Positions 1 through 60,965 of a DNA stretch of 64,000 bases are shown here, piece by piece. The notes below the pieces were generated by a model, which worked only from the letters and a program-made list of their open reading frames with translations, was not told the origin of the DNA and did no database searches. Every line of letters starts with the position of its first letter. Within the stretch, counting starts at the first letter, position 1. Source of the stretch: Antedon mediterranea (Eukaryota; Animalia; Echinodermata); contig NC_092676.1 of NCBI RefSeq assembly GCF_964355755.1, positions 7,541,888 to 7,605,887 on the forward strand. Direction: 5' to 3'. Made by a program: the position numbers and the translations under genes.

Positions 1-748
1 TACAGAGAAGCAGCTTTCCAGCTTATTTAGCCTAGCCTAGAGCAATAGGCTAGGTATTAGTAGGCTACCTAATTAGGCCTAGAGGCTCTATGCCTATATA
101 TTATTATTTAATTATTATTAATTTTTATTTTTAATATATTTACAGTATTTATTACAAATAATGTTTATTATGAGGATACCTGGTTATATATACCCTATGC
201 AATGACATAAGGCATATATGCCTACCCTGTATGTAATAATTACAATTATTATAAATAATGAATTTTAACATTTGTTTTTGCTCATCACTGCATATTCAAA
301 TTAGTATGTATGCAACCATAGTAAATTTAATAAGTTAATTTTAATTAATTCTTATTATAATGTTATACTATTACTATTACTATTTTTTAGGTACATATAT
401 AGCGGCAACCCAAAATGGCTAAAACATTTTAAACAGATTTGGACCAATACCTATACCTACCATCTATATAGGTAAGTTTATTTTACTGTTCAAGAACTAG
501 TAAATTTTAAATTGTGTTTACCATGCTATGAATGTGTAACTTTAACAATCAATCACTAACACATGTACAGTACAGCAGTAGTACTATCAATCAATAGTAA
601 TTAGTTAGTAATTGAAATATAGACATACTATAGTATTACTTTTACATATTCATTATCATTAGGCATTGTTAAAAGGAAATCAATACAATGCAATATTCCT
701 TTAACATTTAAAAATGTACAATATTTTATGATCATTAATGTTAATGAA

Positions 749-1025
749 TCATTCTTTGTTGGCTTTCTTGCATTTGTTGGGTTTTATTATTTCATTTTGT
801 ATCATTGGAGATGTGAAAATCAGATGAGTCTAAGTTTGACTCTAATCCACACTGCTGTTTTGTGACGGTTGAGTTTGGCATGTATTAGCTCCCCGCCTTG
901 CTCAGAGACCCCCTTCCATTCTCTCATGAATGCAATAGCATGGTGCTCAAGCATATGTAGCTTAGGCTGTATTACACCTGGTGCAATATGCCTGTATTCT
1001 GCTAAAAATACTTGTATGATATTTT
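749..1025 (-). pseudogene. Transib/RAG1/Chapaev-like transposase catalytic C-terminal exon
   Basis: Manual translation: IIQVFLAEYRHIAPGVIQPKLHMLEHHAIAFMREWKGVSEQGGELIHAKLNR. This has PKxHxxxxH followed by SEQGxExxH, the third (E) catalytic motif. A frameshift follows, then …TSPMIQNEIIKPNKCKKANKE*. Confidence 0.75.
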
Positions 1026-1369
1026 TATGGAATTAAAAAATACTTAATTTACACATTAATACATTTTATAATTTCAGAAATTTTGTGATGAAAAAGTCAA
1101 TCTGTGGTGACTGTAGAATGGACCCAAGATCTGACTATCTTAGACATTTAAATAATAGAAAGTTCTGACAATTTTGTTGAATAGAAATATACAATGTATG
1201 ATGTAATCTTAATTGAAAATTGGCGCTTTTTAAACTATGTATATAAATTAGGATGAGAAAACAGTTATTTGATTATGAGGTATGTTCATTTAATTAAATT
1301 TGTTAGTATAAACTTTCAAAAAGAGTGAAGATATAAAGAAGAAAAGCAGATTATGGAGCAGCTGTATCA

Positions 1370-1706
1370 GACAAAAAACTGTTCCCTTAAACGCCAGTGT
1401 GTTCTTTCACTTGTGAATGTAGTTTTGGCCCAGGTCATAGTTGTTGTTGAAGTGTAGCATGCCAAGCAATTTGGTCCATGCCCTGTTAATTTAAATGTTA
1501 GCGTGGTAGTATACAGTATCCATTGAAAATTCGCGAATGGCAGGTTGTATAAATGTATATAGGTTGTAATTTTACATTTGTTAGATTTAGTGCAAATTTG
1601 TGATGGTTTTCATATTTTTTAAGTTGTATTTTTTATCCTTTTCTTTAAATTTTGTTCCACAACAGAAGCAAGTAGAACGTAAAGCCTTTTCGTGAAACTG
1701 TGTTGC
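1370..1706 (-). pseudogene. RAG1 N-terminal-like (Chapa/CND-type) zinc-binding exon, two frameshifts
   Basis: After the acceptor tttttgtag, manual translation gives ATQFHEKALRSTCFCCGTKFKEK / …NVKLQPIYIYTTCHSRIFNGY / TTTLTFKLTGHGPNCLACY. The spacing matches the RAG1 motifs H..LR..CRICG..F, IHP..FC..C and W.PH...C..C. Confidence 0.7.
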
Positions 1707-2586
1707 CTACAAAAAAGAAAAGAAATTTTAATTTTACCAACCTTTAATGTTATATTATATTTATCATACAGTAGTTTGAGTATTTTTGTATAGGCTTTAA
1801 TTTTAAGGGCCTAGCTAGGCCTGGTAGTTAGTAGTTTTACTAAATTTTTACATTTATGATGAATTATATTCAGTTGAAATAAATACAATGATAATAATTA
1901 AGCTTATTATTTATTCTATTGTAAATTAAAATGATGTATAGTATGATTACACTACTTATACGTACCAACTAGGCCTAGCTACAACCTAGGCCTAGTTGCG
2001 TACAGCCTAGCGAGCGGTTATCAGCCGCGTTCATCGACCTCTCGCCAAATACGCTGTTTCGCATTTAACAAAACAGTCGAGTTTTTACATGAAAATTTCT
2101 TGAGATTTTCACCGTCACCTCCTAACAATTCAATGTCTCATGTAAGCATATATAATCAAACTTTTACCTAGATTTTCCAAGTATTTATGAAAATTACGAA
2201 TAAAAACAAAAAGTGTACAATTTGACAAGCATTTTTTCAAACTTTCCATTGTTTACATTTGCTAGGCCGATCGATGTTAATTTTTAAAACTTCCGGGTGT
2301 AAATAATTTCGTAAACTTGTTGTTATGCTTAATTACTTACTATTTCCAAAAAATCGGTAATTAAGAATCTTATTTTCTAACAAATAGTATAAAAATGGTT
2401 TTATAATATTTATGACGAAATTGATTAAATTAATTTAAAGTGTAGTTATAAAAGTTGCAAATGTCGCGAAAGTTGAACGAGATTCAACCACTCGCGCGGC
2501 GTCACGCTCAGGCACATATCGCCGTCTGACAATATTGAGGGCGCTTGACTTTTTCTATTTATTTTACATTGGTTGAAACAGCTGTG

Positions 2587-3400
2587 GTCCATACGCGTTA
2601 GTTGTCTCAGTGGTTCTAAGATGTCTGACAAAGTTGGTAAGAATCTACTTAAGTAGTTGATGAAACCAATAAACCTCCTAACCTCATTTAAATTCTGTGG
2701 TGTTGGCATGTTTAGTACAGCCTTAATTTTGTTGTCATCTGGCTTTACACCTTGTCTTGTGACCTTGTGACCCAGAAAAGTTATCTGTGGTTCACGGAAT
2801 GTGGACTTATCCTTATTTAACTTAATGTTTAGTTGCTGGCACCGCTCTAGCAATAACTTTAAGTGTTTATCATGGTTTTGAAGTGCAGCTTCATCTGTTT
2901 CACCCTTACCATAAACAATTACCATATCATCGGCCACACACATTATCCCCTCTAGCCCTTCTAAGGCTGTGTGTAATCGGCTTTGAAATAGTTCAGATGA
3001 TGTACATAGGCCAAATGGCAATCGATTCCATTGGAATCTGCCAAATGGAGTATTAAAACAGGTAAGTTCTCTCGATTTGTGATCTAGTTTTATTTTCCAA
3101 AAAGCTTCACTCAGATCCAGTTTCGAGAATATTTTGGCATCATTCAGTTTTGGTAATACATCATCAATAACTGGTAACTGATAGTGAGCTCGTTTTAAGG
3201 CTTTATTTAAGGGTCGGGGGGTCAACACATATTTTTAGTTTGTTGTTGGCTTTAGTAGCGACAACCATCTGACTTACCCATTGTGTGGGGTGGTCGGGTG
3301 CTACTTTTTTTATTACCCCTCTTTGTTCCATTTTAGTTAGTTCGTCTTTTTCTCTTTGTTTAATTGAGTGGGGAATTCTCCTCGCTGGAAGTACCGTACC
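2587..3400 (-). pseudogene. pol: Gypsy reverse transcriptase (frameshift at ~3225; cut at 2587)
   Basis: ORFs 3203-3775 (3' part: WVSQMVVATKANNKLKICVDP) and 2446-3228 (RT core). The last ~47 aa of the 260-aa ORF are read-through into the inserted transposon. Confidence 0.92.
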
Positions 3401-6070
3401 ATTTTCATCAATGTCTATTTGGCTTACTTGGGGGTACCCTTTCTTTGGTTTTGTGGTTTTGGATCTGCAGCATGCAGCAAAATGGTTTGGTTTATCGCAC
3501 TTGTCACATGTGCGTCCCCTCGCAGGGCACTGTTGATGACTTGCATTATAGCCACATTTTCCACATTTCTTCGTCGAGTCTGATTTATGTCCCTTGTAAT
3601 GTGAGGGCGCTGTTTTATTATATCTTTTTGTTTTGTCAGTGTTGATTTTATGCACTTGGCTTTCGCCCTCCATCACCTTTAAACTTTCTTGGGATGTCTC
3701 ATAATTGAGTGCAATGTTAATCGCTTTGTCAAGGGTTAGCTCATCTCCTACGTCAAGACATTTGTGTACCGCCAAACCAAAACCAGGCGTTTGTCGGCAG
3801 CAAGGGATTTCTGTAAAATGCTTCTGAATGTGTAAAACCTATATCTTGACCATTTTTAGTTTTTTAAATAATCTTACAGAAAATTTACCGTAGATTCCAA
3901 AAATCTATGTATTTTAAAGAAATTATAAGTATAAATCAATGAAAATAACATTTTAATGAGACCCCCTTTTTCGTCTTTGGTGAAAAAATCAAGTTCTATT
4001 CTGTAATTTGTGTCTATTTCTAACCAACTTTTACATCTTTGATTATGAGAAGACCCCTTAATGTGTGGTATTTTTAGAAAGCTCGTGAAAAAATCTTTCC
4101 AAAGATAAAGGTTGTAGGTCATGTAAAATAATAGTATAGCCAATCAAACACATTCTTTAATAACCTTTTGGTATAAGCAAACCAGTCTTGTTGCTACGGA
4201 ATCCTGAAACAGGCAATTTGATTGGCTAACAGAGTGGCTAAAGTCATTGAAGCGTTAAATTTGCCTTTAACAGTTATTCAAAGTACACTGAGGAAGCGGT
4301 AAGGTTTTAACAAAACTTTCTTACTGTAAAAAACATTCAATATTAATTCATACTTGCTATTTATGCATCCTAGATAATAATAAAACAACAAAGAATAGTT
4401 TAATGATTTATATAATATGAAAAGTAGAAATATTGGCTTCACTAGCGAATCATAAACAACAAGAGGTTAGAAAGTACGAAATGACTTTCTAGCGCGACAC
4501 ACTCAGTTTGGTGAACACAGAAACACTTTTGATCAAAATATTAGGCCTAGCCTAGGCATAAGATAAGAGATGAACTGTATGCCAGCTTAGTACTTCAAGT
4601 TAGCCTAGTAAAACCACCTAGCATACCTTGGTCTAGGCCTAGCCCAAAAAAAAATGATTTTTAAATGTGTTTAAAAAAGTTTAATTTAATTTTTCATTCT
4701 GTTTTCAGATCTTGATTGGTATACTGTAATGTAATACCAATAGTTTTGACAGTGGTGGTGATGCTGTTGCTACTTTCTCTTCTCAAAGAACTCCAATAAT
4801 GGTGATACGGTGCTTAATATAACTTTACAAAAATGACTTTGATTCTGATGATACATGACACATGTATTCTATTATGCAACGTAACCCTGAATAAAACCGT
4901 GAAATAATTGTGTCGAAAAATATGTATGTATTTAAATGACCCGGCACAAAAGATGATAATACTGTTGTTGTAATACGCAGCCTAAAATGACCAAAATTTT
5001 ATAATTTAAAGTGTACCAATTGTAAATAAATTTAAACACATCAAACACAATCAACTGTCTGTGTATCATTAATTTTGGTTCATTTCTATGTGTTGTATTT
5101 TTATTGTCACTTTATTAATAGTACTTATTTATAGTTATTACAAGCCTCACACATAACATAAGTTTAGTAAAAAAAAGTTTACTAACGTATGTTGTTATTT
5201 GAAGTCTCATTTGACAATGTTATTGTTACTGGATTTCTTTGAAAATTTCAATGATTATAGAAAAATGTATTAGTTACATTTGTGCTAAATTTCAAAGTCA
5301 TAGGTATACTAGAAGTTAGCGTTGTCAAGGTGAACATGAGTCGCTGTCTGCCAGCACATTTAAACTTCCTGTTTGAACTATTGTTTATCTTTGAATGCAT
5401 TTTTCACTGCTTAATAAAAATGAATTCTTACTTGTATTTCTTTACTTATTGTATCATAACTATAAAAATACTTGACCAAATTGAATAATTTTTTCAGTAT
5501 TTTAAAGAAAATTATGTGCTCTGTACAAATATCTTGAAAACTCAAAATGTCACATTTACGACAAATGCCTGGTTTTGATTTGGCTGTACACATTTTTCTC
5601 TCACCTTGTGTTCCTTTGCTTTTACGACGATCGCGTCTCTCAACATTCTATCCTCGTCATCGTACTCACAACGCTTTATCAACACTCTTAGATCGGTTAG
5701 AAATATATTTAAAGACTCACCGTCTCTTTGTGCCCGTCCGTAAAATTCTACGGTCGCTTTGATGACGTTCTTTTTCGGCCTAACATAAAGTTCAAACCTG
5801 TTAAAAACACCTGTTAGTGTATCATTTTCGGCTGGCGTGGCTGGCTGGTCGTCGATCGCCTCGACGGCTGACGCCCAGTCTAGTGTGTCGAAAATTTCTC
5901 GGCCTCGATCCCCGAAGTATGTCATGAAGTAATTTACCTTCTGCAACTCGGTTTTCTCAGATAATGGGCCGTTAAATGTAAATTGACAATGCTGCCTGAA
6001 CCTCTTGAATTTTTTGTACAGGTCTACAGATGCCCAGTCCATCTGGGGCGTCTTTGATTTCGTAGCCATA
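3400..6070 (-). pseudogene. gag: Gypsy gag split by a MITE insertion
   Basis: …DRMLRDAIVVKAKEHKVREKC | LDVGDELTLDKAINIA…CGKCG…H..CPA.G.TCDKC.KPNHFAACCRS rejoins in frame when 3764-5591 and one TSD copy are removed. Confidence 0.88.
3764..5591. mobile_element. Non-autonomous TIR element (Sola1-like), 1828 bp
   Basis: ~33-bp imperfect TIRs GTGTACCGCCAAACCAAAACCAGGCGTTTGTCG / CGACAAATGCCTGGTTTTGATTTGGCTGTACAC. The 4-bp TSD ATTT (3760-3763, 5592-5595) fits the AWWT target reported for Sola1. Confidence 0.75.
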
Positions 6071-6118
6071 ATACTGGAATGTTCGGTAATATAGGCTAGC
6101 AAACACCGCTTGTCACCA

Positions 6119-6247
6119 TGTTGTGTTTCTCTATATTGACTCACGTGTACAGACATACAAGACAGACACGTCTTCACTTGGTAACAGTACTTTATTTAGT
6201 GACTCGTTCATTAACATAGGTCATACAATAGAGGGCTCACTACATCA
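6119..6247 (-). repeat. 5' LTR (~129 bp) with adjacent primer-binding site (6103-6118)
   Basis: On the minus strand it runs TG…CA with an internal AATAAA, immediately followed by TGGTGACAAGCGG (PBS-like) upstream of the gag ATG. Confidence 0.7.
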
Positions 6248-6589
6248 CCTGGTGGACTGATCTGAAGGTTTTCAAGAAGTTCATCGTTGCTCGATTCTTG
6301 GTCGTAACGTATACGTTTTTTGCGGTAGCTGCACATGTTGGCTGAGCACGCTTTCTGGAACGTCTGGTTACACCTCTACTAGTACTTGCTGTAGATATGA
6401 AAAACAGATTTTGTTGAGACGGTGTTTACACAGTTTATAAATACTTGTACTGTTCGAAATGTTATCAGTGTAAACATATATCATTCAACAAAGGCTAATG
6501 AATATATTGTTTGTTTCGATTATAATATTATGCTCTAGAGGTCAAAATAGAGAAAAATGTGAAAACACTAAATTAAGATTTGATGCCAT

Positions 6590-7775: not shown

Positions 7776-10700
7776 TATAGTTGTTGCAAAACAATATAAT
7801 ATGCGCACATATAGCGATATTATTGCATAAATTGAATTTTAAAAAGTCGATATTTGTACTATAGTAAGGGATTTTTTCAGAAAATGGCAAAATATCTACC
7901 CTATTAATTTTCGACAAAACTGTGTATTATGGCTCTATAAGTTGTTGCAAAACAATATATGCACACATATAGCAATATTATCGCATAATTATTGAATTTT
8001 AAAAAGTCGATATTTTATGCATTTTTCGAAAAAAAATCAGTGTACCAAAGTACATGGATTTTTTCAGAAAATGGCGAAATTTCCACCCTTTTATTTTTCG
8101 ACAAAACTGTGTATTATGGCTCTATAAGTTGTTGCAAAGCAATATATGCGCACATATAGCGATATTATCGCATAATTATTGAATTTTGAAAAGTCGATAT
8201 TTTGGGCATTTTTCGAAAAAATCACTGTACAGGGATTTTTTCAGAAATTGTCAAAAATTTCGACCCTTTTATTTTTCGACAAAACTGTATATTATGGCTC
8301 TATAAGTTGTTGCAAAACATTATATGCGCACATATAGCGATATTATCGCATAATTATTGAATTTTAAAAAGTCGATCTTTTGGGAATTTTTCAGAAAATT
8401 GCAAAATTTCTACCCTTTTATTTTTCGACAAAACTATGTATTATGGCTCTAAAAGTTGTTGCAAAACAATATATGCGCACATATAGCGATATTATTTCAT
8501 AATTATTGAATTTTGAAAAGTCGATATTTTGGGCATTTTTCGAAAAAATCCCAGTACTATATAGTAAAGGATTTTTTCAGAAAATGGCAAAATTTCTACC
8601 CTTTAATTTTTCGACAAAACTGTGTATTATGGCTCTATAAGTTGTTGCAAATCAATATATGTGCACATATAGTGATATTATCGCATAATTATTGAATTTT
8701 AAAAAGTCGATATATTGGTCATTTTTCGTAGTAAGGGATTTTTTCAGAAAATGGCAAAATTTCGACCATTTTAAATTTCGACAAAACTTTGTATTATGGC
8801 TCTATAAGTTGTTGCAAAACAATATATGCGCACATATAGCGATATTATCACATAATTATTGAATTTTAAAAAGTCGATATTTTATGCATTTTTCGAAAAA
8901 AAATCAGTGTACCAAAGTACATGGATTTTTTCAGAAAATGGCGAAATTTCCAGCCTTTTATTTTTCGACAAAACTGTGTATTATGGCTCTATAAGTTGTT
9001 GGAAAGCAATATATGCGCACATATAGCGATACTATCGCATAATTATTGAATTTTGAAAAGTCGATATTTTGGGCATTTTTCGAAAAACAGGGATTTTTTC
9101 AGAAATTTTCAAAAATTTCGACCCTTTTATTTTTCGACAAAGCTGTATATTATGGCTCTATAAGTTGTTGCAAAACATTATTATGCGCACATATAGCGAT
9201 ATTATCGCATAATTATTGAATTTTAAAAAGTCGATCTTTTGGGAATTTTTCAGAAAATTGCAAAATTTCTACCCTTTTATTTTTCGACAAAACTATGTAT
9301 TATGGCTCTAAAAGTTGTTGCAAAACAATATATGCGCACATATAGCGATATTATTTCATAATTATTGAATTTTGAAAAGTCGATATTTTGGGCATTTTTC
9401 GAAAAAATCCCAGTACTATATAGTAAGAGATTTTTTCAGAAAATGGCAAAATTTCTACCCTTTAATTTTTCGACAAAACTTTGTATTATGGCTCTATAAG
9501 TTGTTGCAAATCAATATATGTGCACATATAGTGATATTATCGCATAATTATTGAATTTTAAAAAGTCGATATTTTGGGCATTTTTCGTAGTAAGGGATTT
9601 TTTCAGAAAATGGCAAAATTTCGACCATTTTAAATTTCGACAAAACTTTGTATTATGGCTCTATAAGTTGTTGCAAAACAATATATGCGCACATATAGCG
9701 ATATTATCGCATAATTATTGAATTTTAAAAAGTCGATATTTTATGCATTTTTCGAAAAAAAATCAGTGTACCAAAGTACATGGATTTTTTCAGAAAATGG
9801 CGAAATTTCCAGCCTTATGGCTCTATAAGTTGTTGCAAAACATTATATGCGCACATATAGCATTATTATCGCATAATTATTGAATTTTAAAAAGTCGATC
9901 TTTTGGGAATTTTTCAGAAAATTGCAAAATTTCTACCCTTTTATTTTTCGACAAAACTATGTATTATGGGTCTAAAAGTTGTTGCAAAACAATATATGCG
10001 CACATATAGCGATATTATTGCATAATTATTGAATTTTGAAAAGTCGATATTTTGGGCATTTTTCGAAAAAATCCCAGTACTATATAGTAAGGGATTTTTT
10101 CAGAAAATGGCAAAATTTCTACCCTTTAATTTTTCGACAAAACTGTGTATTATGGCTCTATAAGTTGTTGCAAATCAATATATCTGCACATATAGTGATA
10201 TTATCGCATAATTATTGAATTTTAAAAAGTCGATATTTTGGGCATTTTTCGTAGTAAGGGATTTTTTCAGAAAATGGCAAAATTTCGACCATTTTAAATT
10301 TTGACAAAACTGTGTATTATGGCCCTATAAGTTGTTGCAAAACAATATATGCGCACATATAGCGATATTATCGCATAATTATTGAATTTAAAAAAGTCGA
10401 TATTTTGGGAGTTTTTCGAAAATATCCCCGTACAATAGTGAGGGATTTTTGTCAGAAAATGGCAAAATTTCGACCCTTTTATTTTTCGACAAAAATGTGT
10501 ATTATGGCTCTATAAGTTGTTGCAAAACAATATATACGCACATATCGCGATATTATTGCATAATTTTAAAATTTTATAAAGTAGATATTTTGGGCATTTT
10601 TCGAAAAAATCCCTGTACTAAAGTTCATGGATTTTTTCAGAAAATGACGAAATTTCCACCCTTTTTATTTTTCGACAAAACTGTGTATTATGGCTCTATA

Positions 10701-11440
10701 AGTTGTTGCAAAAACAATATATGCGCACATATAGCGATATTATCGCATAATTATTGAATTTTAAAAAGCCGATATTTTGGGCATTTTTCGAAAAAAATCC
10801 CTGTACTATAGTAAGGGATTTTTTCAGAAAATGGCAAAATTTCGACCATTTTAAATTTCTACAAAACTGTGTATTATGGCTCTATAAGTTGTTGCAAAAA
10901 CAATATATGCGCACATATAGCGATATTATCGCATAATTATTGAATTTTAAAAAGCCGATATTTTGGGCATTTTTCGAAAAAAATCCCCGTACAATAGTGA
11001 GGGATTTTTTTTCAGAAAATGGCAAAATTTCGACCCTTTCATTTTTCGACAAAAATGTGTATTATGGCTCTATAAGTTGTTGCAAAACAATATATACGCA
11101 CATATCGCGATATTATTGCATAATTTTCAAATTTTATAAAGTAGATATTTTGGGCATTTTTCGAAAAAATCCCTGTACTAAAGTACATGGATTTTTTCAG
11201 AAAATGGCGAAATTTCCACCCTTTTAATTTTCGACAAAAATTCCATTTACTATAGTACGGTACAGGGAATATTTTCAGAAAATGGCAAATTTTCGACCCT
11301 TTTATTTTTCGACAAAACTGTGTATTATGGCTCCATAAGTTGTTGCAAAGCAATATATGCGCACATATAGCGATATTATCGCATAATTATTGTATTTTAA
11401 AAAGTTGATATTTTGGGCATTTTTCGAAAAAATCCCTGTA
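7776..11440 (+). repeat. Tandem satellite, ~20-22 monomers of ~150-190 bp, with ~860-bp higher-order repeat
   Basis: Recurrent core TTCGACAAAACTGTGTATTATGGCTCTATAAGTTGTTGCAAAACAATATATGCGCACATATAGCGATATTATCGCATAATT. Near-identical spurious ORFs recur at 8513, 9372 and 10036. Confidence 0.95.
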
Positions 11441-11664
11441 CATATATCATCAACTGGCATGCACAGACGCACATAATATGTTCTGCGCATGCTACCTCAA
11501 TATTATATACATACTTTAAAATGTCGAATGAAAATTATGTTTACATCATAGATTGTGTTTGTTTATAACCTTTGTAACATGGAAAATATATATTTATTAT
11601 AATATGTTAATATGCTATACAAAAACTAATAAAGAGACATATAGAGAAAATGTGCATTCTGTAA

Positions 11665-13632: not shown

Positions 13633-16600
13633 TTATTTTCCAAAACAAGCATCGTCACTGTCATAATCATCACTTTCTTCATCACTTTTATTTGGATAAT
13701 CTTTTTCTTTATCTTCTTCTTTTTCTGAATCGGATGATATTAAACTTCCCTGATCGCTAAGTTCTTCTGAAGAAACACTTTCCTCATCACTCGACTCCCC
13801 GGATTCGGTTTCTGATTTGTTTTCCACTGAAAAAGATAAATATAAACATCATTTAAAATGTAAATACAAAAACAAGGTATTTCAAATATTGTTGATTAAA
13901 ACAACAAATTGTATACAGAAAAAGTATTAGCATAATCGTCATAATATTGTAATTGGTGTATGATCTTCCTCATATGTTCACATTCACCACTGATCATGAT
14001 CAAACCATTCATTTTACAGTATGTGAACCTAATCATGATTAAATTACGTGATCAGTTTAATCACCCTAACAGGATCAGTGGAGCAAGTTAGAGAAGCATG
14101 TTAGCCTAGTATAACATGATTCATAAAATAGAATCATTCAATCAGCATCATTGCACATCACCTTATTGACCCATTTTCCATTCCACGTGACACTCATTAG
14201 AATAAATTGATCATGATCTAGGCCTAATGTCTGTGTGAACAAGGCCATCCAACAACAGGGCACTGAGCTCGCCATGACAGTAACTCGTAACAGTTCTTTG
14301 GTCTTATGTCTGGCTGCGAAATACCAAAGTGTATGGGTCATGGGACCGATTGTGTCGCAGAAACGAATAGACCCTTTTATCTCCAGAGCTCAACATCCTG
14401 TTGTTGAACGTTTTCTCTTTATCCTGCTAATCTTATGACAGCAGAACGATGATAATTAAGTCAAGATATTCTATATGAATGAGCCGTGTCATCTGTACTT
14501 ATTCTTCTTGAGGATTTGCTCAAGATCTTTCTCACAAAAAGACTTATTATTGATCATTGTAATTGTGTATTTACCGGTATCTGTCATGACTTGATTTCCG
14601 GGATCTGAAATAATTATAATGATAAAGGTTTATTAAGCACATTCCCACGTGATTATGAGTGGACACTATAGTTTGCTTGGTTCCGACAGGACGCCAAACT
14701 CAATTTATTTGACCAATCATAATTTTTTTATTTTTTTTTTTATTTATTTTTTTTTTTTAATTAAGTGATGGATCTCTACTGTTTCTTGTGATTGATTGTT
14801 TTGAGAGCCCTACTAAACTATTGTCGTCTGCCTAGATATAGAATAAAATTAAATTAGAAAATAAGCTTCCGGGTCATATAGCGCAAAAATGTTTAACCTA
14901 CCGATATCTAAATCTGTAGTAGATTCTACAGAAAAATCAATGCAACTTTCATCATCTGTTGAATACAAAATAAATACGTATAAATTGATGATTGAAATAA
15001 AAGGTATAATATATTAGTTGGTCTCATTAATTGAACAAACAATGTATACAAACCAATTGTCACATCTAGTGATATTTCACTTTCCTGTAAATAAAAGAAA
15101 AATAGTTATTAGAATAAGCATTTTAATAAAGAATTCCTTAATATTTGAGAGTGTTGGGGATGGACATTTAAATAGTGTCTCTCTAACTGGACAGTTTATG
15201 GATGACAATTGCTCATACAGTAATGCTCGAAATCTCTGCTTCACCAATGATAACAACCCTCTCCATGCTTCCTACTTACAAGTTTGATATCACGTGCTAA
15301 TGTTTGAGAGGACAATGACCTATTAAGTCTTCGAACTTCGTGCATCTAAAAATCAAAAGTATGTTCAAGTAAACTTTTTCATAACAATATTTTTTAGAAA
15401 AAAAAAGTTGCATAGGCCTATTGAAGATGATAATTGGTCAGATGTTTTGCCCCACTCTGACGTAATCACCAGCCTTGCGAGTATTCTCAATGTACTTAGT
15501 ATAAAGTGCAAATTACGTCAGAGTAGGGAAAAAAATCTGACCAATTTCTCAAAACCTTGTCGCAAAACTACTTCGCAGTAGTTATAAACAATTATAATCC
15601 GAGGTTGATAATGTTTAAATAATGGTGTATACTTACCTCATAAGAAATGTAGCAATAGATGGCGACAAAGATACCATTAGAAGCAAACAGTAAACTGAAG
15701 AATAGCCAGAATACGTATTCGTCATCCACCATTAGTGAAAACATCCAAGTACAGATAAAGAAAGGGAAAAGAAAACAACTGCATTCCAAACAGCGTCTAC
15801 AGTACGGTAGAATAAAAGTATATATATATATATATATATATCCGTTACAAGCTGTGGATCCTCAATTAAGCCCTGTCTACAATATCAAACTGTGACAAAA
15901 TGTGTTGTGCCCATATAAAATAGACACGATGACGTCATATCACTACCATTATTATTTGGGCGCATCACACTTTGTGTGTAGATAGTGTAGACAGAGTTTC
16001 AGAAAATGCATTATTGTTTTATAATACAGAATTGTTTCTAAAAAAGTTAGAACTTACCGTATTTGGGCTGCAATATATTCTTTTCGTTTCTTTCCGTTGA
16101 ATTTCGTTATAAATATTACGATGATTAGAATCATCCGAATCTGTTAACGAAAAGAACAGTCAGAACACATCACTCATCCTTTTGTTTAGGATACAACATC
16201 GCAGGGTCTACATAGGCTATATGCTGTACTTTACAGTTCTACGCCTTATTAAATCATAGCAAAGGCAAAATAATAATTTCTTACAAGAATCAGTGTCATT
16301 GCTGGGAATATGAACGCAACTAAACTGCCAGTCTCAAACTTCAGCCAACATCTAAAATAAGTGACATGCATTGTGAATATCTACTAAGAAGTAGAGAGGT
16401 GAGTGATTACAAACATCAGTTTTCTGATAGAGATAGTACACAAGCGAATTGCAATTTTGCATCTCAGTATTATAGCAGACATATACAGTATATTTAGATA
16501 CACCATGTCATTAACAACAATTTGTCGTTATCTATCTATATTGTTATCATTAATGTGCTTACCCGCTTATTTCGTTATAACCATAGTGAATACCAAAGAA

Positions 16601-19600
16601 TAAGCCTGATGTACATGCGGCGCCTCCCCATCCGCAAAGTAGATACCCCGGTCTCTTGGATACAGTTACGCCTTCTATTCGTGCTTTTGTTTTTAGCATG
16701 TAGAAGTATATGCATTCAACAATCAACCACGTAAGGATGGCCATGTAGAAAAAGTGTATTAGAACACCAAACGTGGTGCACAAAATCTATAGCAATAAAC
16801 AGAAATAAACAGAGTTAGACCTAGTCATAATCAATGTTACTTTGTAATACTTATTTAGGAGATAGGATCAAAATGTTTTCTTATACGTACGCTGTAGTCC
16901 ATTGTCTCTGAACTGATGATAAATGTTACCGTCAATAACAACCCAGCAATTAACAAGTTACAATATATAAAGATTGACACAGGTCCCTTAAAAATGCCCC
17001 TGTAAGTGCAATAGTAAACACAGTGATCGAACCAACGATACATTATATTTTTATCAAAATAATTATATTTAAAAATTCAGTAATGTTAATGAATATGTTA
17101 ATATAAAATGAATGATATATCAACAACAATTTCTTACCAAGTAAAATGAATGATTTTCAAAATGTATATACTCGCGATTATTGAAATAAGACAGAGTAGG
17201 TAAATGCCCATACGTTCTCCTAAGCGTTTAAAATCAAAATCCTACAAAGCAAAACATTTTTCATATTAAATAAAATGTTGATAATACCAGGAAAGAGTGA
17301 ACTTGCATTCACTCTGATAATACATTATATCATTGGTAAATATTTGTTAAATGTTCATATTTAATATTTGCTTGAAAGTACGTGGATATTATTATGCAAT
17401 TCAGAAGTTGAACTTGACAAAATGCAGAGACATAGCAAAAGAGGGCGTGCTACTTCCTACTTCAGTCAATATTAAAGATAAAATAGCTCGAGATTTGGAT
17501 AAGTTTTTGTGACATTACCAATACATCGATTTTCCTAAAAATTAATAGGCATGGTCTATGGGTAGTTATAAAAACAATTCAGAAAGATAACTTGAACATT
17601 TTGGACGTTTGTGCAAATAAACATTCAAAGTAAATATATGCATACAAGCATTGTGTTGATAAGGTTGAGTGAATAAATACAAAGTAATCCAATGTAACGT
17701 ACGCTATATTTTTCCACTGGTACAAATATACCGAATGTTGTGGTGTGGTCACAATGGCATTCAACTGGTGACATTATCTCAATGACGTCAGTGCGCCTAC
17801 ATCCTGATGTAGACCATTTACTAAAATGTAAACAAATGAAATGCAAGTAATTGTGTTTCCAAAGATACCTTCATATGTAGGCTACACAAAGGGCGCATGA
17901 GCAGAAATTGATAATGGCCCATGTGGCAGACAAACCTGTTGTCTTCATCCCAAAAGCTGCATACAGCATGTTCCTTGTAGTATAGTTCGTCTTCCTTTAT
18001 TTTCTGAGAATGATAAACGTGAACAACATCATGTTATTAGGAATTGACATTGGGTTTTTTTCTTTCAGATATGTAAATTGCAATGGCCTAGTTACATACT
18101 GTGTATAATTCCATAGAATAGTCAACAGCTACTGAGTATTTTGATGTGTTTGATGCTACCGTGCACGTGATCAGGCCAGTGGCCAGCTCATATGGGACAG
18201 GCACGATGTAATCACTGTTGTAAAGAAGAAGAAAAACAGAATATAATTTCCATAAAAAGCTGGTTTTAATGAAAATTCTAGCAGAGCTATATTTGTATTT
18301 ATTGAGTTGAGTTATATGGAATATCGTGCCAATGTTGGGATTATGCAAACATAATTCCAACAGAAACCGCTGCAATTACTGTAAATTGGTAAATTGTTTA
18401 CCTTATTGTTGTTATTATAGATATTAATTGAATGTAAAACATACCGTATCCATTCCTAAAAAAAGTACAGTATTTATTTTAATTTGAAAATACATGATAC
18501 TTTAAAAATGAATTACATACGCTTCAATTTCGTCAAAAGTTACTGATGATTTTTCATTCCCTTCACTTTCTTCAAACACCGTTTGTTCGTAATATGATAC
18601 TACCATGTATGCCGTTTCTGAAGAAAAACAAATAATAGGGACGGTTCATTTTCGTATCGAGTCGAAAAGTCATTAGTCATACTCGGAAACATATGAAAAT
18701 AGCTAATAATGAAGATAGAAATTGAAAAAGAGTTGAAAGTAAAATTATCATGGTTTGAAATTAAATTAATATAAGCGACTTACCAGGAACATTTCTCGCT
18801 GAACTCGGATCAATTCTCAGAAATCCTATGTCGTTATTGCCAATCATTTTGGCATTATCTGTTTCTGTATCTAAAACGTTTTCTTTGGGTTGAATATGAA
18901 ACGACCAGACACGATTCTTTGTCAACGCGATGTTTGATGCTACAAAAAAATTACTACATTATAGCTCATGTTTGTCAAATCTTAAGGCCTGTTTTGTTTA
19001 TTTGACATCCCTCAACACTCTGTTGTAGTGTGTGAATGAAGTATGGAGAAACAAATAAGGAGAGAAAGACTACATCTTAATAAGGTTCTATGTGTAATGT
19101 GGTCAAATCAACTATGATTTTAGGAAAATGTATTATGAATAATTCAACGTTCCCCTAAACGAAAATCTTACCAACTGATTCGGACGATCTTTTCCATGTT
19201 GAATTACTTTCTTTAGTTGCAATTACTGTCAAGATTTTCTCAGACGCATGTACAATATCAATTTGTTCCGCCATGTTCTATAAATTTTGTAACAAATAAA
19301 TTATATTTCCGCAATCAAATCATAACATACGCGATAAGAAAAATCAAGCGATTTGTTACGTAAAACAGTAGTAAGTACATTTTTGCATTAAAATAACATT
19401 TGATCCTATTTTTACAGCAAGTAAGTTTTATAACTTAATTGTTGTAAGAATATTGAATAATGTTTAATTGTAACAAAAAACACACCTTACCTTCTTACGA
19501 GCTAGAACAGTTGTTGTCACGTTAATGATCTCCTTTTGAAATAATGACCAAAACAATACAATTAATTGAAAACAAAAATAAGGAATAATAACAATATTTT

Positions 19601-22600
19601 AATATGTAAAGTTGTAACTAACGGTTTATTTGTATATAAGTAAACAAGGAGAAACTGAGGTTTCGATCAATATTTTTCGACCATTATATATTTTATCGAC
19701 AATTTGAGGTGTTGTGCCACTGACGCAAAAGTAAACTTACTATAAAAATAAAGTTAGTTCACATGGTATTCCTGCGATAGTTATAAGCCACAGTACAACT
19801 ATTAATTACTGCTTCGTTCCCACGCGTAACCTTTCGTAGTCTACGCGTGGGACATTTTTTCATTGATCCCAAACATACGAAGTATTGTCTTTTGATCACG
19901 ATCCCACGCAAGGTATTGTTTTTTTTATCGCGTTCCCACGCGATCACACGCGCTCCAACGGGAAAGGAATTGTTTTTGGATCGCGATCGGCCTATCAGTT
20001 TGTTTCTATTTCTTACCTCTGTCATAATGCCTGCTTCCCTATTTCCTATTAATGTCGTAGTTTCGGAAATAGTTAACAAAGTAATCTGCAAATTGTCTAT
20101 TTCATCTTCAGTCAATGGTCTATCCTTTTTCCGTTCGGTTGCAATGGCTGATATTTCCAAGATATCAACATCATCTGTCCCGTTGTAAAGCTGTTGAAAC
20201 AAGGGAATATTATAATGGGTTCATTGCTCGACAGTTAATTTTCTCAATGGTAGGAAACATACATCATGCCGTATTTACTTAAGAAATAATCATACTAAGT
20301 TAGTTCCATCGTCTGCTGAAAGTGGAAGTGACGGTGGGAATTCTGCTATAATGTATCAAAATATATCCTTCAAGACTGAAACACTAGGCAGCTGGATGTT
20401 GCAAATGAGACGGGAGCTGTCCTCTTGTTTTAAGTGTAGGCCTACTGTTAATTCTTAATAAGTTTTTTTTTTTATTAAAGGCACGGGCTTAAAAGACTAA
20501 AACTAAAAGATGTAACAGTTTCTCAAGTCTAGTTTGTGTACAGTATCTAATAGATGTATATTTATTTGCAGTAAACAAATGCCATTATTCATACCATGAC
20601 TCGTAGGTCACTGAAGGCATTTCGGATGGTGACCGTAAACGTATGTGTCTGGATGTTTCCACTTTCATCAGTAGCTGTGTAAATCACTTCGGTGACTCCG
20701 ACGGAAAATACATCTCCTGGGTCGTGAGTGGATTCTAGCAGTGGTAATGCTCCTGAGTTGTCATCCGGATATGGTGGATCCCATTTAACCGTTACGTTTG
20801 AATAGATTGAATCTATGAACACTTGAATGTCTTCAGTGAAATTCGTAAAGTACGGCACATCTACGTCTATTTAAATGAAAAATTTAAATACAACTTGTTT
20901 TAAAATAGTTAAAAGGGCGGTGGGGTGGTTAATTACCATCGTGTACGGTATTGTAGTAAATGGGTTCTTTATAGAAACAAATTAGAACGATAAGGGTAAA
21001 AAAGACGAAAGATGCATTATGTTGTGGAAATTGATAATACAAAGGTTAAAATGGTTGCATGACAATGACAATTAGCCGTTAATCGTATATACGTGGAAAT
21101 GTATAATAGAAAAAAAAAAGAAATTACCATTAACAGTAATTGTGAATTGACAAAGCTCAACATTCCCAGCTCCATCGACTGCCGTGTATGTTACTAATGT
21201 ATCGTATAAAGGGAAGATATCGCCAGGATTGGCGTCTGACGTCATGTGTGGTGTAACTTCAGAATTATCGTGCCCTGTTGTTACAAACCAAGTTACATTT
21301 GCATATGCAGTTCCTGGAATATTGTCTACATCAAAGTCTAAGGTGCAGTTTGTAAAATAAGGCTTTTCAACATCTGAATCAAAACGAAATATATGTTATT
21401 GTAAATTACATTGCCTAGCATAATGGCATATGTTCTTAGGTTCTAAAGTGTACACAGCACACATACTCCGTCAGCAAAAGCCTATGTGATTTTCGGTAAA
21501 AGAAATCGGGAGTGTACGCTTGGAAAACAAACTTTAAAAACGTTACAACGTTACCTATAACAGTTATATTAAATTGACAATCCTGAAAATTCATCGCTTT
21601 ATCTGTTGCATTATAAATTACAGTCGTTAATCCGAGACGAAATACGTCATTCGGATTGTAGTTCGATACGATTTCATGAACACCAACGTTATCGGTAACA
21701 TTTGGTAACTGCCACGTCACGTTTACGTATGGCGATCTGTACCATGTTGCTATGACTATATCAGTAGGACAGTAAATGAAGACAGGAGATTCTCGATCTG
21801 AAATACCAAATCAAAATACATTTTCAAAGTCGAAATACACTGTAAAAAAACTAAACCGGCAATTGTCAAATAACTTCTACTCAATTATGCATTATAGGGT
21901 GGATGAATATTATTATTTTTTATATTAAGCTTTAACCTTACCTAAGACAAGTATACTAAAAGTAAACCACTCAATATTCCCGGATTGGTCAATAGCTGTA
22001 TACGTCACGTATGTTAATCCCACATAGAATAAATCACCTGGATAGTAGGTTGATGTGACGTTCAGAGGTTCACCAGAATTATCCCAAACAGCGACAACTA
22101 CCCAACTGACATGCGCAAAGTTCACGCTGGCTTCCGTGAGAACAGTAATATTTGGAGTTAAGTTGTAGAAAACTGGAACTTCAATATCTGATTACAAAGA
22201 AGTGAAATGTAAGGTCTCGTTTACACTATAAAACCATTGTTTGGAAAAGTCTAGTCTACAACAAGAAAACTTTACCAAACCTTTGTTTGCACATTTTGAA
22301 TTTATTACAGTACTGTTTGGAGAAGTCTTTAAAATTTACAGTAACTCTATGTTACTGGATGTTCACATGACTACAAAGACTTACTTGATTGGCTGACTTC
22401 ACAAAACAATCAGAAAACTAGTTTGTCAACTAGTTATCTACAATTTTCTAAAGCTAACTGGTTTACACTAGCAACAATTTGCAATGTTTTATTGGAGTTT
22501 TTTTAACAGAGGTTTCCAAAATTTCGCTGGGTAGATTTCTACAAGTTTTTTTAAAATCCTGGCATAATGTGTCAACTGGAGTACACTACCGACGTCATGT

Positions 22601-25600
22601 GGTAATCTGATATCCAGTAAGCACAACTTTCTTCAAGATTTGAATATTGCTACTGGATTCATGGTGGGATGTTTTTAAGAATGTATGCACTAGTCCTATT
22701 ATAGCAAAATGTTTACCTAGTACAGTTATATTGAAGGAAAATTGATTGACATTCTTGAATATATCATACGCCCAATATATCACAGTTGTGTCTCCTATTG
22801 GAAATGTCGTATTTGGTTGATGGGTTGAATTCACAAACACCTCTTCCATTGAATTATCGAATACAGTCGGAATAATCCATTCCATTAAAGCATGAGGCTG
22901 GCGTGAGTCTGTTTCTACTATTGTACTATTAGGTTGACTGGTGAATAAAGGAATTTCTTCATCTGCAAATATCATAAATTACAAATAATTATACAATTTA
23001 ATTATGTATAATGAGCCAATTTATCACATTAATTAAAGGTAAATTTAGAATGTAATTGATGCATTTTAGTATATTGTGCTTACTAGTACTAATACACTAA
23101 TTACTTATTGGTTCTATTGCTGTGAAATACATCAAAATAATTCCAAAGTACCTATAATTGCAACATAGAACGTATGTATAGCATAATTTCCAGCATCGTC
23201 GGTGGCAACACAGTTAATAGTATAGTTGCCAAACCTGAAGACATGTCCTGGGACGTACGTGCAGTTAATGATAGGGATCTCTTCTGAGTTGTCTCGTGCA
23301 ATATCTGTTACAGACCACCAGACAGGTGATGTTGGCAAGCCCGGGTTTGTGTTTAACACAAGGTTACGAGATCCATTGAAGAAAATTGGATCCTCTGAAT
23401 CTGAAAAATATAATTAAGTTTTGAATTCCTTTAGAATATTTTTTTTTTTCTGGTTAGGGTCAGGTCTCAAAATTCTTGGTTTAGGTCAGGTTCAGATTTC
23501 TTGTTCAGGACAGATTCCTGGTTAGGTTCAGGTTCAAGTTGCGATTTCTGGTTTAGGTTAGGTTCACTACCGGGTTCCAATTCCAAATTGTCGAACCACA
23601 GAGCAATAACTGTAACCAAGTTGACGGCAGGATAAATTTACAACAATGTGAAGAGACCGTATAATAATGTAATTCAAAATCTTACCAAAAATTGTTATTG
23701 AAAAGTTACATTGTGCCTCATTGCCACTAAAATCAGTGGCAATGTAAGTTACTTCATGGATTCCAAGTCGAAAGACGTCGTTTGGATAAAAACTTTGGTT
23801 CACCAATGGACTCACACCAGAGTTATCTGATGCTATAGGGTCACTCCAGACAACGTTAGTTGTAGGTAGAAGAGCATCAGTCGGCAAGGAAATGTCGTCA
23901 TGACAGCCAGAAAACACTGGAGATTCATTATCTATAATATAAAATATTATAATAAACAATTTCATCTGGCATTTTACCATTCGTTATTATGTTTTGATTA
24001 TCAAGTCAAGTCAAGTCAAGTATCATTTATTATCATTTGTTTTAAGAAAAAACATAGAAATTCTGTTTACTCTGTTGGCGGAGCACAATATCCAACGGAC
24101 ACAACACGAACTCAAAAACAAAAACATTACAAAAAAGTGTCTACATTATATTTAAGGCTCTAATAGATCCTGGAAAGAAACTATTTGTAAATCGTGCCTT
24201 ATTGACCTGAACAAAACGAAATCGCCGACCACTGCGCATCAACTGGAACATACTAGAGGCCGGATGAAATTGATCATCTTTGATAGCCACTGCCTTTTCA
24301 GAAAACGATCCGAAAATATGTTCTCCAAAGGCAATTGTGCAGATCCAATTATACGCGATGCGGTCTTGACTATTCTATTTAGGTCACGCTATTCATTTTT
24401 GGTAGCGCTACCGAACCATACCGTTAAAGAATACGTTATGACACTCTCTATAACTGACCTATAGAAGGACGACATTATTTCAGCGTTTATACCAAATGAT
24501 CTAAGTCTACGTAGGAAGTAGATTATGATTCTCAATGTCAATACAGGTAATATTTTTTTTATAAACTAAATGCATAATTATATTGGTGTTTAATCGATTG
24601 ATCGGAATATAAATACTGTATACAGTAATAATTAGCTTTTGAAAAAGTTTTCTGAAATCAAGTTACGTGCTATAGTTTCAACAAATCTGACCCCTGACCT
24701 ATGACTGTCACAGTAAATCCACATGTTGCAGTGTTTCCAGCTTTGTCGGTTGCGTTAAATTCGATAGCTGTCTCTCCGATAGGATAATCTCCACCAACAA
24801 GAGTTACATCATCAATAACAGGATCGACTAAGCTGTTGTCGGTGGCCTGCAATTCATTCCAAGACGCCGATCCAAGTTCTCCGCCAGGCAGCGTATTCAC
24901 AACAATATCAGAATGGCAATTAGTAAAAACGGGTGCCGTTACATCTGCAAATTTACAGATTAGAAATTTAGTAATTGTCATTGCAAGTAATCTAATACTT
25001 CGGCTTTTAGGGGTTTTCTAATGAGTGATTTCCACTAGAGACAAGGACACACGCGCAATGCACAAGCGAGCTGACCAATGGCAAGCGACAGTTGCGAAAA
25101 GTCAATCGGTTGTGACGTCATTGCGTTGCATCTTAGTGGAACAATTAACATATACAATTATTTGGACAAAGTTTATTAAAGAAAGCTGTAATTAATTGAT
25201 GCTTTATCCTACGGTTTTATTATTTTTGTTTGTATAATATTTACTGATACATATTAGTTATACGGGGCGCCGTTCGAGACATTATGGTAAAATAATTAGC
25301 AACCAATAATTAAGGCCTCATAAGTCGGTAATGTTGATAAGACAATATCCACAACGGTTACCAAATAATCTGACGATAAATTGACATTGTATTTCTAGGC
25401 CAGCACCATCGGTTGCCGTGACATTCACCGTCGTATCGCCCAACGGGAAATTTTGGCCATTAGTATGAGTACTTGTAACACTTGGTGCAACTCCAGAATT
25501 ATCTAAAAATGTTGGATTAGTCCAGGAACCGGGTGCCTCTGATGCCAAGGGTGAAACATTAACCTCTACAACATCTGGGCAGAAAATGACATCGGGTGAT

Positions 25601-36286: not shown

Positions 36287-36374
36287 CTTTCAATGAATAA
36301 ATTAATAATATTAAATAATCTTGCTCGTTTTTCTCACTCATAAAACATCACCTTATTGAAATTTCTATTTAAAA

Positions 36375-60200: not shown

Positions 60201-60965
60201 AGTACGGAGTACAGTACGGAGTACAGTACGGAGTACAGTACGGAGTACGGTGTAACAAGCCTGATATGTTGTAAATAAAGTACGAATGAATTAAGCTAAT
60301 TGTTGTTGTTTTGTACATGAGTATTGATCGACATCACACAGTATAAGTTTGAGAAATACTTTGATATGGCCATTAATTACAATGAGAAATGAATCGAATG
60401 TAAATGATTGCCTTTTTAATTAACACAAACTGTAAATATACCAAATAAAAATTCACGGTGTACAGACATCATTTTAAGGCGGAGGAATGTAGGTATTGTA
60501 ATAATAAGAGTATAGTAATTGTAATTATCTGTAATTTTTACACCAAAGTCACAGTATGCTTGGCGGAACCAATGTGACAATTAATTACAATGACAAATGG
60601 ATCGAACGTAGGCTTAAGTGATTGCCTTTTTAATTAACAAACTGTAAATATAACAAATATTCACTAAGTTCAGACATTTTACGGCGGAAGAATGATGGTT
60701 ACAATAAGCGTATAGTAATTGTAATCACCTGTAATTGTTACACCGAAGTTACAGTTTGCTTGATGGTTCCCGTCATGGCTCTTTGCCACAATCCGTACAG
60801 TATGTCCGCCAAATTCAAAATACTGGCCACTTTGATGCGTAGACGAGTGCACATACCCATCGGACACGGCTACTTCTCCGTCCCAATAAATACGTTTCCG
60901 ATTTGTTCCAAAATCAGCTGCTTGGGTTTTTTCTCCTGGACATTTAGTAAAGTCCACGGCCATAC
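45276..60965 (-). CDS. Adhesion GPCR, copy B (tandem paralogue): HYR x2 - C-type lectin - HYR x8 - GAIN/GPS - 7TM - acidic tail
   Basis: Exon-by-exon collinear with copy A (e.g. 48546-48770 vs 16559-16783; 55316-55618 vs 22595-22975; 60679-60972 vs 36000-36341). Ends in the same …DDYDSDDACFGK*. Confidence 0.85.
47367..47817 (-). mobile_element. L2-type LINE 3' end in a copy B intron
   Basis: AFSVTAPRLWNALP C-terminal motif, GCGCCTTGAGCAC…GCGCTATAAAAA 3' end and (ATT)n tail. CTGT flanks both sides. Absent from A. Confidence 0.8.
50923..51405 (+). mobile_element. L2-type LINE 3' end, same family, opposite orientation
   Basis: GDRTFSVTAPRLWNALP, with the same 3'UTR and (ATT)n tail. Absent from A. 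Confidence 0.8.
56337..56730 (+). repeat. Degenerate GGTTAGG/GGTTCAGG minisatellite
   Basis: ~24-30 bp units such as GATTTCTGGTTAGGGTCAGGTTCA. A shorter homologue lies in A at ~23450-23585. Confidence 0.8.
58829..59227 (-). CDS. Copy B C-type lectin domain exon
   Basis: ORF 58821-59243 with a conserved CTLD cysteine/W pattern. Confidence 0.88.
60135..60250 (+). repeat. Perfect 12-bp minisatellite (GAGTACAGTACG)x~9.5
   Basis: Directly visible. The homologous A intron (~35810) has no array. Confidence 0.95.

What the first reader, a model, noticed from the sequence alone, without database searches (positions are those of the whole stretch)
2548..2586. Transposon end reads as a 23-RSS: CACAGCT-N23-AGAAAAAGT
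Seen: on the minus strand the element starts CACAGCT (5/7 to heptamer CACAGTG, invariant CAC kept). Exactly 23 nt follow (GTTTCAACCAATGTAAAATAAAT), then AGAAAAAGT (6/9 to nonamer ACAAAAACC, A-tract kept). The CAC sits exactly at the break in the Gypsy RT. Known: Transib and ProtoRAG TIRs are RSS-like. Inference: the other end may have a different spacer, as in a 12/23 pair. The nonamer match could be chance in such AT-rich DNA.
Basis: partly seen in the sequence, partly recalled or inferred. Interest (0 to 1): 0.8.

Follow-up and report, generated by a model that had tools for sequence, protein, structure and literature searches.

The report
Chapaev end; relatives show 12/23-like spacing
This stretch is the end of a broken Chapaev jumping gene sitting in a retrotransposon, and its likeness to an antibody-gene recombination signal is likely chance; but related Chapaev elements carry one shared motif about 12 bases behind the first seven letters at one end and about 23 at the other, a layout that would, if the enzyme needs it, push the 12/23 design back beyond the RAG/Transib family.

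Summary
The letters are as described: CACAGCT, 23 nt, AGAAAAAGT. The CAC is the true edge of a multi-copy insertion in a Gypsy pol gene. The element is a non-autonomous Chapaev, not Transib or RAG. Its C-terminal piece belongs to DUF1280 transposases. Its first 13 nt match the ends of related elements, 19 of 28 of which have exact 4-bp target duplications.

The nonamer is weak: 2% of window sites score 6/9 or better, and 0 of 36 relatives' ends do so at spacer 23. Contigs suggest the family's second end is a same-length repeat of about 64 bp, so it is likely symmetric. This copy's duplication was not seen.

Unexpected result: in a sister clade of Chapaevs, both ends share a block (GGRCACTTAG) whose offset differs by 10-12 bp. 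Spacers are 11-13 at the 5' end and 22-23 at the 3' end, in 9 of 10 families; 0 of 300 shuffles reach the score. A predicted Chapaev transposase has the RAG1 fold and a segment that aligns with the nonamer-binding domain. I found no paper reporting this. Function is untested, nine of the ten families come from one assembly set, and the window's own end lacks the block.

The parts
2574..2586 (-). Terminal 13 bp of the element (CACAGCTGTTTCA), the conserved Chapaev end
   Evidence: Identical to the 3' end of L077 and one letter from L076; depth step and loose ends at 2586/2587
2548..2556 (-).
   Evidence: 6/9, background 2%; 0 of 36 relative ends reach 6/9 at spacer 23; two changes here in a sister subfamily (2549, 2551)
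2523..2586 (-). Inferred imperfect terminal repeat of about 64 bp, shared with the family's second end
   Evidence: A contig class at the depth of the element body matches 2523-2586 with 64 letters on 64 places (9 other letters, 2 compensating gaps), then runs into unrelated sequence. Not physically linked to the element; inference
2539..2556 (-). 18-bp block inferred to be identical in both ends, starting 23 nt behind the heptamer at both; candidate transposase site of this family
   Evidence: Arithmetic on mismatch counts of overlapping contigs: X9 record 27 and X11 records 12 and 14; inference
1370..1706 (-). Degraded, frameshifted N-terminal piece with the Chapa pattern H-x7-C-x2-C-G and later C/H motifs
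   Evidence: Seen directly. Pattern compared by eye with the CHAPA alignment in PMC4411706 supplement 5. Best hit in the window for a Chapa HMM, but not significant (E 0.15); no BLASTP support
823..1020 (-). C-terminal Chapaev transposase piece (PKLHMLEHH...EQGGELIHA), with a small deletion; the middle of the gene, with both catalytic Asp motifs, is not found in this copy
   Evidence: 70% identity to P0001, Anneissia japonica; HMM positions 756-843 of 866, E 3e-14, and no other significant piece
1..2586 (-). Non-autonomous Chapaev derivative; its other end is not in the window
   Evidence: No partner repeat in 1-6500 or in the window; raised depth throughout
2587..2590 (+). Predicted 4-bp target duplication (GTCC); not observed
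   Evidence: Extrapolated from 19 of 28 end pairs of relatives
2587..3234 (-). Gypsy reverse transcriptase, interrupted at 2586/2587
   Evidence: RVT_1 E 4.7e-25; contigs of the uninterrupted site in all four runs
3764..5591 (.). Second, unrelated DNA-transposon insertion in the same Gypsy: ends GTGTAC..., terminal repeat of about 33 bp, ATTT on both sides

Best explanation
The site is the 5' end of an internally deleted Chapaev cut-and-paste transposon inserted in a Gypsy pol gene, and its match to the RSS nonamer is likely chance on top of the CAC end that Chapaevs have anyway. The element is likely moved in trans by an autonomous Chapaev transposase. That enzyme would grip the terminal 12-13 bp (CACRGNNGTTT), cut at CAC and leave a 4-bp duplication (shown for relatives, inferred here). 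This family likely has near-symmetric ends of about 64 bp, with a shared 18-bp block beginning 23 nt behind the heptamer at both ends. In a sister clade the ends are bipartite and asymmetric (shown in sequence): one block GGRCACTTAG lies 10-12 bp further in at the 3' end than at the 5' end. It is likely read by a domain that sits where RAG1 has its nonamer-binding domain (predicted fold; binding untested).
For: Family: closest homologue 70% identical. Homologues carry DUF1280, which PMC3985635 equates with Chapaev transposases. A full-length homologue matches RAG1 only in the N-terminal Chapa/RING region, residues 164-372, and a 95-sequence profile finds no RAG1 or Transib chain by sequence. 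Ends: of 82 loci scanned, 28 gave an end pair; 19 have an exact 4-bp duplication, 1 has 3 bp, 3 have 2 bp and 5 have none. A motif-free search gave 34 pairs at 4 bp, 14 at 3 and 1 at 5, chance pairs included. Nonamer at spacer 23 scores at most 5/9 in 36 of 36 distinct ends, and both key As are present in 6 of 36. Second end of equal length and similar depth. Asymmetry in relatives: best pooled shift +11, score 7.9 against null mean 5.7, maximum 6.3, 0 of 300. A motif found de novo starts at 16-18 in 11 of 13 5' ends and at 27-29 in 22 of 23 3' ends. The transposases of the 10 families are 37-67% identical. The model of P0076 (pLDDT 95.4) matches RAG1 at Z 28.3, rmsd 3.4 A over 457 residues. 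In several rows model residues 57-120 align from RAG1 391-401 onward (rmsd 7.5-9.8 A for those longer alignments).
Against: The second end was not linked physically and this copy's duplication was not seen (no genome held). A true 12-type partner end would share too few letters to be laid. The 18-bp block that includes the 'nonamer' is inferred to be identical in both ends while the letters just outside it differ, so the position may well be functional even though the RSS likeness is not. The Chapa piece is not statistically significant. The window end lacks the relatives' block (best score 0.1) and is no closer to their 3' ends than shuffles are (72 of 200). Nine of the ten paired families lie on contigs with one accession prefix. 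The tenth (L063) does not show the 5' block, and in the per-family 9-mer test L009 and L063 gave other best shifts (8 of 10 fit). Absolute spacers of 12 and 23 depend on my choice of register; only the 10-12 bp difference does not. Conservation of positions 1-11 is partly circular, because ends were picked with that motif.
Confidence: 0.85

Rival explanations
1. The window family is itself a 23/12-type pair: this end is the long-spacer end, the true partner (outside the window) has the same block about 11 bp closer to the tip, and the 64-bp contig class belongs to another family.
For: A sister clade has exactly such asymmetry. The block starts at spacer 23, like the relatives' 3' block. The second end is not physically linked.
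Against: The 64-bp class has about the depth of the element body (X9 277 vs 275-290; X11 1101 vs about 1030-1270) and leaves the window sequence for unrelated DNA, as a second end would. In relatives the long spacer is at the 3' end, whereas this is the 5' end. No similarity to their 3' ends beyond shuffles.
Confidence: 0.1
2. The element is a Transib or RAG-like transposon with a true 23-RSS.
For: CAC kept, and nonamer positions 5 and 6 are A, the positions PMC1131882 names as essential; Chapa-like piece shared with RAG1L.
Against: The C-terminal motif and all close homologues are DUF1280/Chapaev; no RAG1 core match by sequence; relatives make 4-bp duplications; no RAG2-like gene was noted among the ORFs (by eye, not searched with a profile). 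10.1101/100735 reports the RAG transposon lost in crinoids, the likely host group.
Confidence: 0.03
3. The 10-12 bp offset in the relatives is a neutral by-product of one ancestral element in one host and is not needed for transposition.
For: The paired cases form one clade in a quick tree and come mostly from one assembly set. L025 and L059 deviate (starts 25 and 23). The window family seems to do without it.
Against: The offset is held to 10-12 bp while the spacer letters are nearly unconserved (mean consensus share about 0.5) and the proteins are 48-67% identical among the nine families that show it. The 3' position 27-29 also holds in more distant branches (L035, L038, L074, L034).
Confidence: 0.3

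Closest known systems
Chapaev transposons (CMC group; Chapaev-1/2 type, Pfam DUF1280)
   Same: CAC terminus; Chapa-like N-terminal pattern; H(4)H motif plus catalytic Glu region; relatives with 4-bp duplications (PMC4079192 gives 3-4 bp and invariable CAC/GTG).
   Different: This copy lacks the middle of the transposase. Its inferred repeat of about 64 bp is longer than the 12-13 bp shared between the relatives' two tips. Bipartite asymmetric ends were not mentioned in the passages read.
Chapaev3
   Same: CAC ends.
   Different: Chapaev3 makes 3-bp TWA duplications between A and T. The flank here begins GTCC, and relatives give 4 bp of varied sequence.
Transib and V(D)J RSS
   Same: CAC heptamer plus an internal block; 12/23-type asymmetry in some Transib families (PMC1131882); shared predicted fold.
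   Different: 5-bp duplication; A-rich nonamer; in the Chapaev relatives the block is GGRCACTTAG (3-6 of 9 to ACAAAAACC) and positions 8-12 are conserved too.
RAGL transposons (ProtoRAG, PflRAGL-A, AanRAGL)
   Same: N-terminal zinc finger; asymmetric bipartite ends with a 9-10 bp difference in PflRAGL-A and AanRAGL.
   Different: No RAG1 core by sequence, no RAG2L seen, 4-bp rather than 5-bp duplication in relatives.

Membership tests
Chapaev | Termini 5'-CAC...GTG-3' | tested here: met
   The end in the window begins CAC at the insertion boundary; the other end is inferred only
Chapaev | Chapaev (DUF1280) transposase core | tested here: met
   C-terminal piece hits an HMM of 83 homologues at E 3e-14; homologues carry PF06918. 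The piece lies outside the DUF1280 model and has no Pfam hit itself
Chapaev | N-terminal Chapa zinc finger | tested here: inconclusive
   Pattern H-x7-C-x2-C-G present; top window hit but E 0.15
Chapaev | 3-4 bp target duplication | tested here: inconclusive
   Not seen for this copy; 4 bp in 19 of 28 end pairs of relatives
Chapaev | Intact DDE triad (autonomy) | tested here: not met
   Only HMM positions 756-843 of 866 are found in the window: a non-autonomous copy
Transib / RAGL | RAG1/Transib core by sequence | tested here: not met
   No PDB sequence match for P0001 or profile A3; P0005 matches RAG1 only at 164-372; no RAG1 core family is listed for the 109 homologues
Transib / RAGL | 5-bp target duplication | tested here: inconclusive
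   Not seen for this copy; none of the 28 relative end pairs has 5 bp
RSS-like 12/23 ends | A-rich nonamer conserved at spacer 23 or 12 across families | tested here: not met
   6/9 or better in 0 of 36 ends at 23 and in 2 of 36 at 12
RSS-like 12/23 ends | One-turn length asymmetry between the two ends, window family | tested here: inconclusive
   Contigs point to equal length, but the second end is not linked
RSS-like 12/23 ends | One-turn length asymmetry between the two ends, sister clade | tested here: met
   Difference of 10-12 bp in 9 of 10 families; 0 of 300 shuffles
RSS-like 12/23 ends | Enzyme requires one short and one long end | not testable with these tools
   Needs a cleavage or excision assay
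RAGL | Adjacent RAG2-like gene | not tested
   No profile search run; the 3' part of the element lies outside the window

The most novel reading that the evidence does not exclude
Chapaev transposons obey their own 12/23-type rule: a domain homologous to RAG1's nonamer-binding domain reads a block one helical turn from one end and two turns from the other. The one-turn/two-turn architecture of V(D)J signals would then predate the split of Chapaev from Transib/RAG, and the echinoderm family in the window would be a secondarily symmetric 23/23 form.
Probability: 0.35. Interest if true: 0.8.

Novelty: new variant of a known kind. Interest (0 to 1): 0.55.

Why it matters
The window copy by itself is an ordinary new member of Chapaev. 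The novelty rating is for the end architecture found in its relatives. Where the 12/23 asymmetry came from is debated (Transib seed versus RAGL-A; PMC10462144), and Chapaevs are cited in that debate mainly for the N-terminal zinc finger. A Chapaev clade with a held 10-12 bp offset, a non-RSS block and a predicted NBD-like segment offers an outgroup system. It would allow a direct test of whether spacer asymmetry is ancestral or evolved twice, with apparently symmetric and asymmetric families side by side.

Tried and rejected
No whole genome is held. No partner end was found in the window. An exact end pattern found nothing in metagenome contigs. Viral contigs gave no relatives; genome contigs gave 2 loci. 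Loose ends gave no pair from which to read this copy's duplication. My by-eye idea that the window end resembles the relatives' 3' ends failed the shuffle test (72 of 200). BLASTP of the N-terminal pieces against P0030 was not significant. A two-copy fold of the NBD-like segment (P0076 45-122) gave no verdict: score 0.00, alignment not used, fold uncertain; it is no evidence either way. The careful tree did not finish; the quick tree left out the window piece as too short, so its place is taken from P0001. Two look-ups of earlier findings returned nothing. Yuan and Wessler 2011 is not held. P0007 and P0027 were unrelated hits and were dropped; P0012 was also left out of the alignments.

Full report
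OBSERVATION. The minus strand from 2586 reads CACAGCT, 23 nt, AGAAAAAGT: 5/7 and 6/9 to the RSS consensus, and 23 is the best spacer between 5 and 59. The Gypsy RT (RVT_1, E 4.7e-25) stops there. Contigs of four runs of one sample show a depth step at 2586/2587 (X9: about 275-290 over most of the element body against 15 on the Gypsy side). They also show ends that leave the window at 2585/2586 with other flanks, and Gypsy contigs that join at 2587 with other letters before them. Depth is no copy number, but it fits a young multi-copy family. Chance: 2.0% of window sites score 6/9 or better. 13 of 399 CAC heptamers have such a nonamer at 12 or 23, with 42 hits at +-1.

WHAT THE ELEMENT IS. On the minus strand it holds a frameshifted piece with the pattern H-x7-C-x2-C-G (1706-1370) and a C-terminal piece PKLHMLEHH...EQGGELIHA (1020-823). 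The latter is 70% identical to a crinoid protein, P0001. With HYR and C-type lectin exons nearby, this suggests an echinoderm host (inference). Longer homologues carry DUF1280, and some also carry RING and RAG1_imp_bd. PMC3985635 (passages) equates DUF1280 with Chapaev transposases. A full-length homologue matches RAG1 only at residues 164-372, and a profile of 95 homologues finds no RAG1 or Transib chain. An HMM of 83 homologues hits the window significantly only at positions 756-843 of 866 (E 3e-14), so the middle of the gene is missing. The Chapa piece is the top hit of a Chapa HMM but only at E 0.15. The other end is not in the window, and no genome is held.

THE FAMILY'S SECOND END (inferred). 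One contig class covers 2523-2586 with 64 letters on 64 places, with 9 other letters and two compensating gaps, then runs into unrelated sequence. Its depth is close to that of the element body. Comparing mismatch counts of overlapping contigs places no difference in 2539-2556, four in 2523-2538 and five plus the gaps in 2557-2586. So both ends likely carry AGAAAAAGT at spacer 23: symmetric, not 12/23. Against the nonamer being special: a 5'-end subfamily has 2 of its 6 differences over 79 bp inside it (2549, 2551), and another class has a spacer 3 nt shorter. For it: the block is inferred identical between the two ends while the letters just outside it differ. This copy's duplication could not be read.

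RELATIVES WITH FLANKS. A metagenome scan gave 208 relatives, of which the best 80 were kept; two more came from genome contigs. A motif-free search for CAC..GTG pairs first showed ends CACGG..GTTT with 4-bp duplications. With that motif, 28 of 82 loci gave an end pair: 19 with an exact 4-bp duplication, 1 with 3 bp, 3 with 2 bp and 5 with none. A second motif-free pass gave 34, 14 and 1 pairs at 4, 3 and 5 bp, chance pairs included. The window's first 13 nt equal the 3' end of L077. Among 13 distinct 5' and 23 distinct 3' ends (16 of them single ends without a duplication check), none scores 6/9 to the RSS nonamer at spacer 23, two do at 12, and 6 of 36 have both key As.

THE UNEXPECTED PART. 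These relatives have bipartite, asymmetric ends. For 10 families with both ends (9 with exact 4-bp duplications, plus L076), the best pooled shift between 5' and 3' subterminal DNA is +11. It scores 7.9 against 5.7 +- 0.18 in shuffles (maximum 6.3, 0 of 300). Per family the best shared 9-mer is at +10 to +12 in 8 of 10; L009 and L063 differ. A motif found de novo over all 36 ends, TGGGCACTTAG, starts at 16-18 in 11 of 13 5' ends and at 27-29 in 22 of 23 3' ends, a few with weak scores. In the register RCACTTAG the spacers behind the heptamer are 11-13 and 22-23, a difference of 10-12 in 9 of 10 families, and the block matches ACAAAAACC at only 3-6 of 9. The register is my choice; the difference is not. 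The transposases are 37-67% identical. In a quick, midpoint-rooted tree these loci form a clade of 25 (SH-aLRT 97), apart from the echinoderm clade of P0001 (99); the window piece was too short and was left out. Nine of the ten families share one contig prefix, which limits breadth. The window end lacks this block and is not closer to the 3' set than shuffles are.

MECHANISM. Shown: boundary, family, loss of the catalytic middle, 4-bp duplications and the offset block in relatives. Predicted: an AlphaFold model of homologue P0076 (pLDDT 95.4, pTM 0.85) has RAG1 as its top structural match (Foldseek E 2e-15; Z 28.3, rmsd 3.4 A, 457 residues). HzTransib follows at Z 25.9, rmsd 3.1 A, 405 residues. 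In several rows the model's residues 57-120 align from RAG1 391-401 onward, the nonamer-binding region (NBR 387-480 in PMC1131882), at rmsd 7.5-9.8 A for those longer alignments. The segment starts with a conserved TGGQP...PRK motif. P0076 is from neither the window's clade nor the asymmetric clade. Inferred: this segment binds the internal block, and a one-turn offset lets it tell the two ends apart, as RAG1's NBD does. The window family is moved in trans and has shifted to near-symmetric ends. None of this was assayed.

LITERATURE. Seen as passages: PMC4411706 (plus supplements 4 and 5), 10.64898/2026.01.24.700457 (19), PMC4079192, PMC10462144, PMC1131882, 10.64898/2026.08.26.747230 (notes that duplication length is labile in Transibs, so it is a supporting trait only), PMC3014272, 10.1101/100735 (80), PMC12730594, PMC9435367, PMC3985635. 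Searches for Chapaev with nonamer, heptamer, recombination signal, asymmetric or TIRs showed no report of asymmetric bipartite Chapaev ends in the listings or in the passages read. Repbase Reports, Yuan and Wessler 2011, subscription papers and bioRxiv supplements were not seen and could hold such a remark.

VERDICT. The flagged site is an ordinary Chapaev end whose RSS likeness is likely chance, worth about 0.2 alone. Following it up exposed a statistically firm 12/23-like offset in a sister Chapaev clade, with a plausible reader domain, untested and so far narrow in host range. Overall interest 0.55.

Noticed in passing
window 3764-5591: A second DNA transposon sits in the same Gypsy element: terminal repeats of about 33 bp beginning GTGTAC, flanked by ATTT on both sides. 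Superfamily not determined; Sola1-like is a recalled guess, from no call.
   Followed up: partly
window 2531-2540, minus strand: CCTCAATATT, 47-56 nt from the tip, matches 9 of 10 letters of the internal element CCTCAAYAYG given for AanRAGL ends in PMC9435367, but at a different distance. Noticed after the fact and probably chance.
   Followed up: no
L059:7968: The apparent 5' end looks like a shortened copy of the 3' end of the closely related L080; it may be a nested element or an end replacement.
   Followed up: no
window about 16500-23400 and 48500-56300; 33900-36300 and 58300-60950: Two large duplicated segments (87-98% identical in the pairs listed, about 32.7 kb and 24.4 kb apart) with HYR and C-type lectin exons: a tandem gene duplication.
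   Followed up: partly
window about 26900-33400, + strand: LINE-type retrotransposon with endonuclease and reverse transcriptase ORFs.
   Followed up: partly
window about 7800-11500; 41800-43700; 60135-60250: Irregular satellite of 150-190 bp units, an inverted array of 160-bp units, and a 12-bp tandem repeat.
   Followed up: no
window 1086-1150: Many contigs share this short stretch and then leave it, so a piece of another repeat likely lies inside the element.
   Followed up: no
L081, L082: Two Chapaev-type transposase relatives lie in bacterial MAG records, probably host contamination.
   Followed up: no
window 42696, + strand: CACAGATGTTTCA, a second Chapaev-type terminal motif, inside the inverted array; no partner checked.
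   Followed up: no
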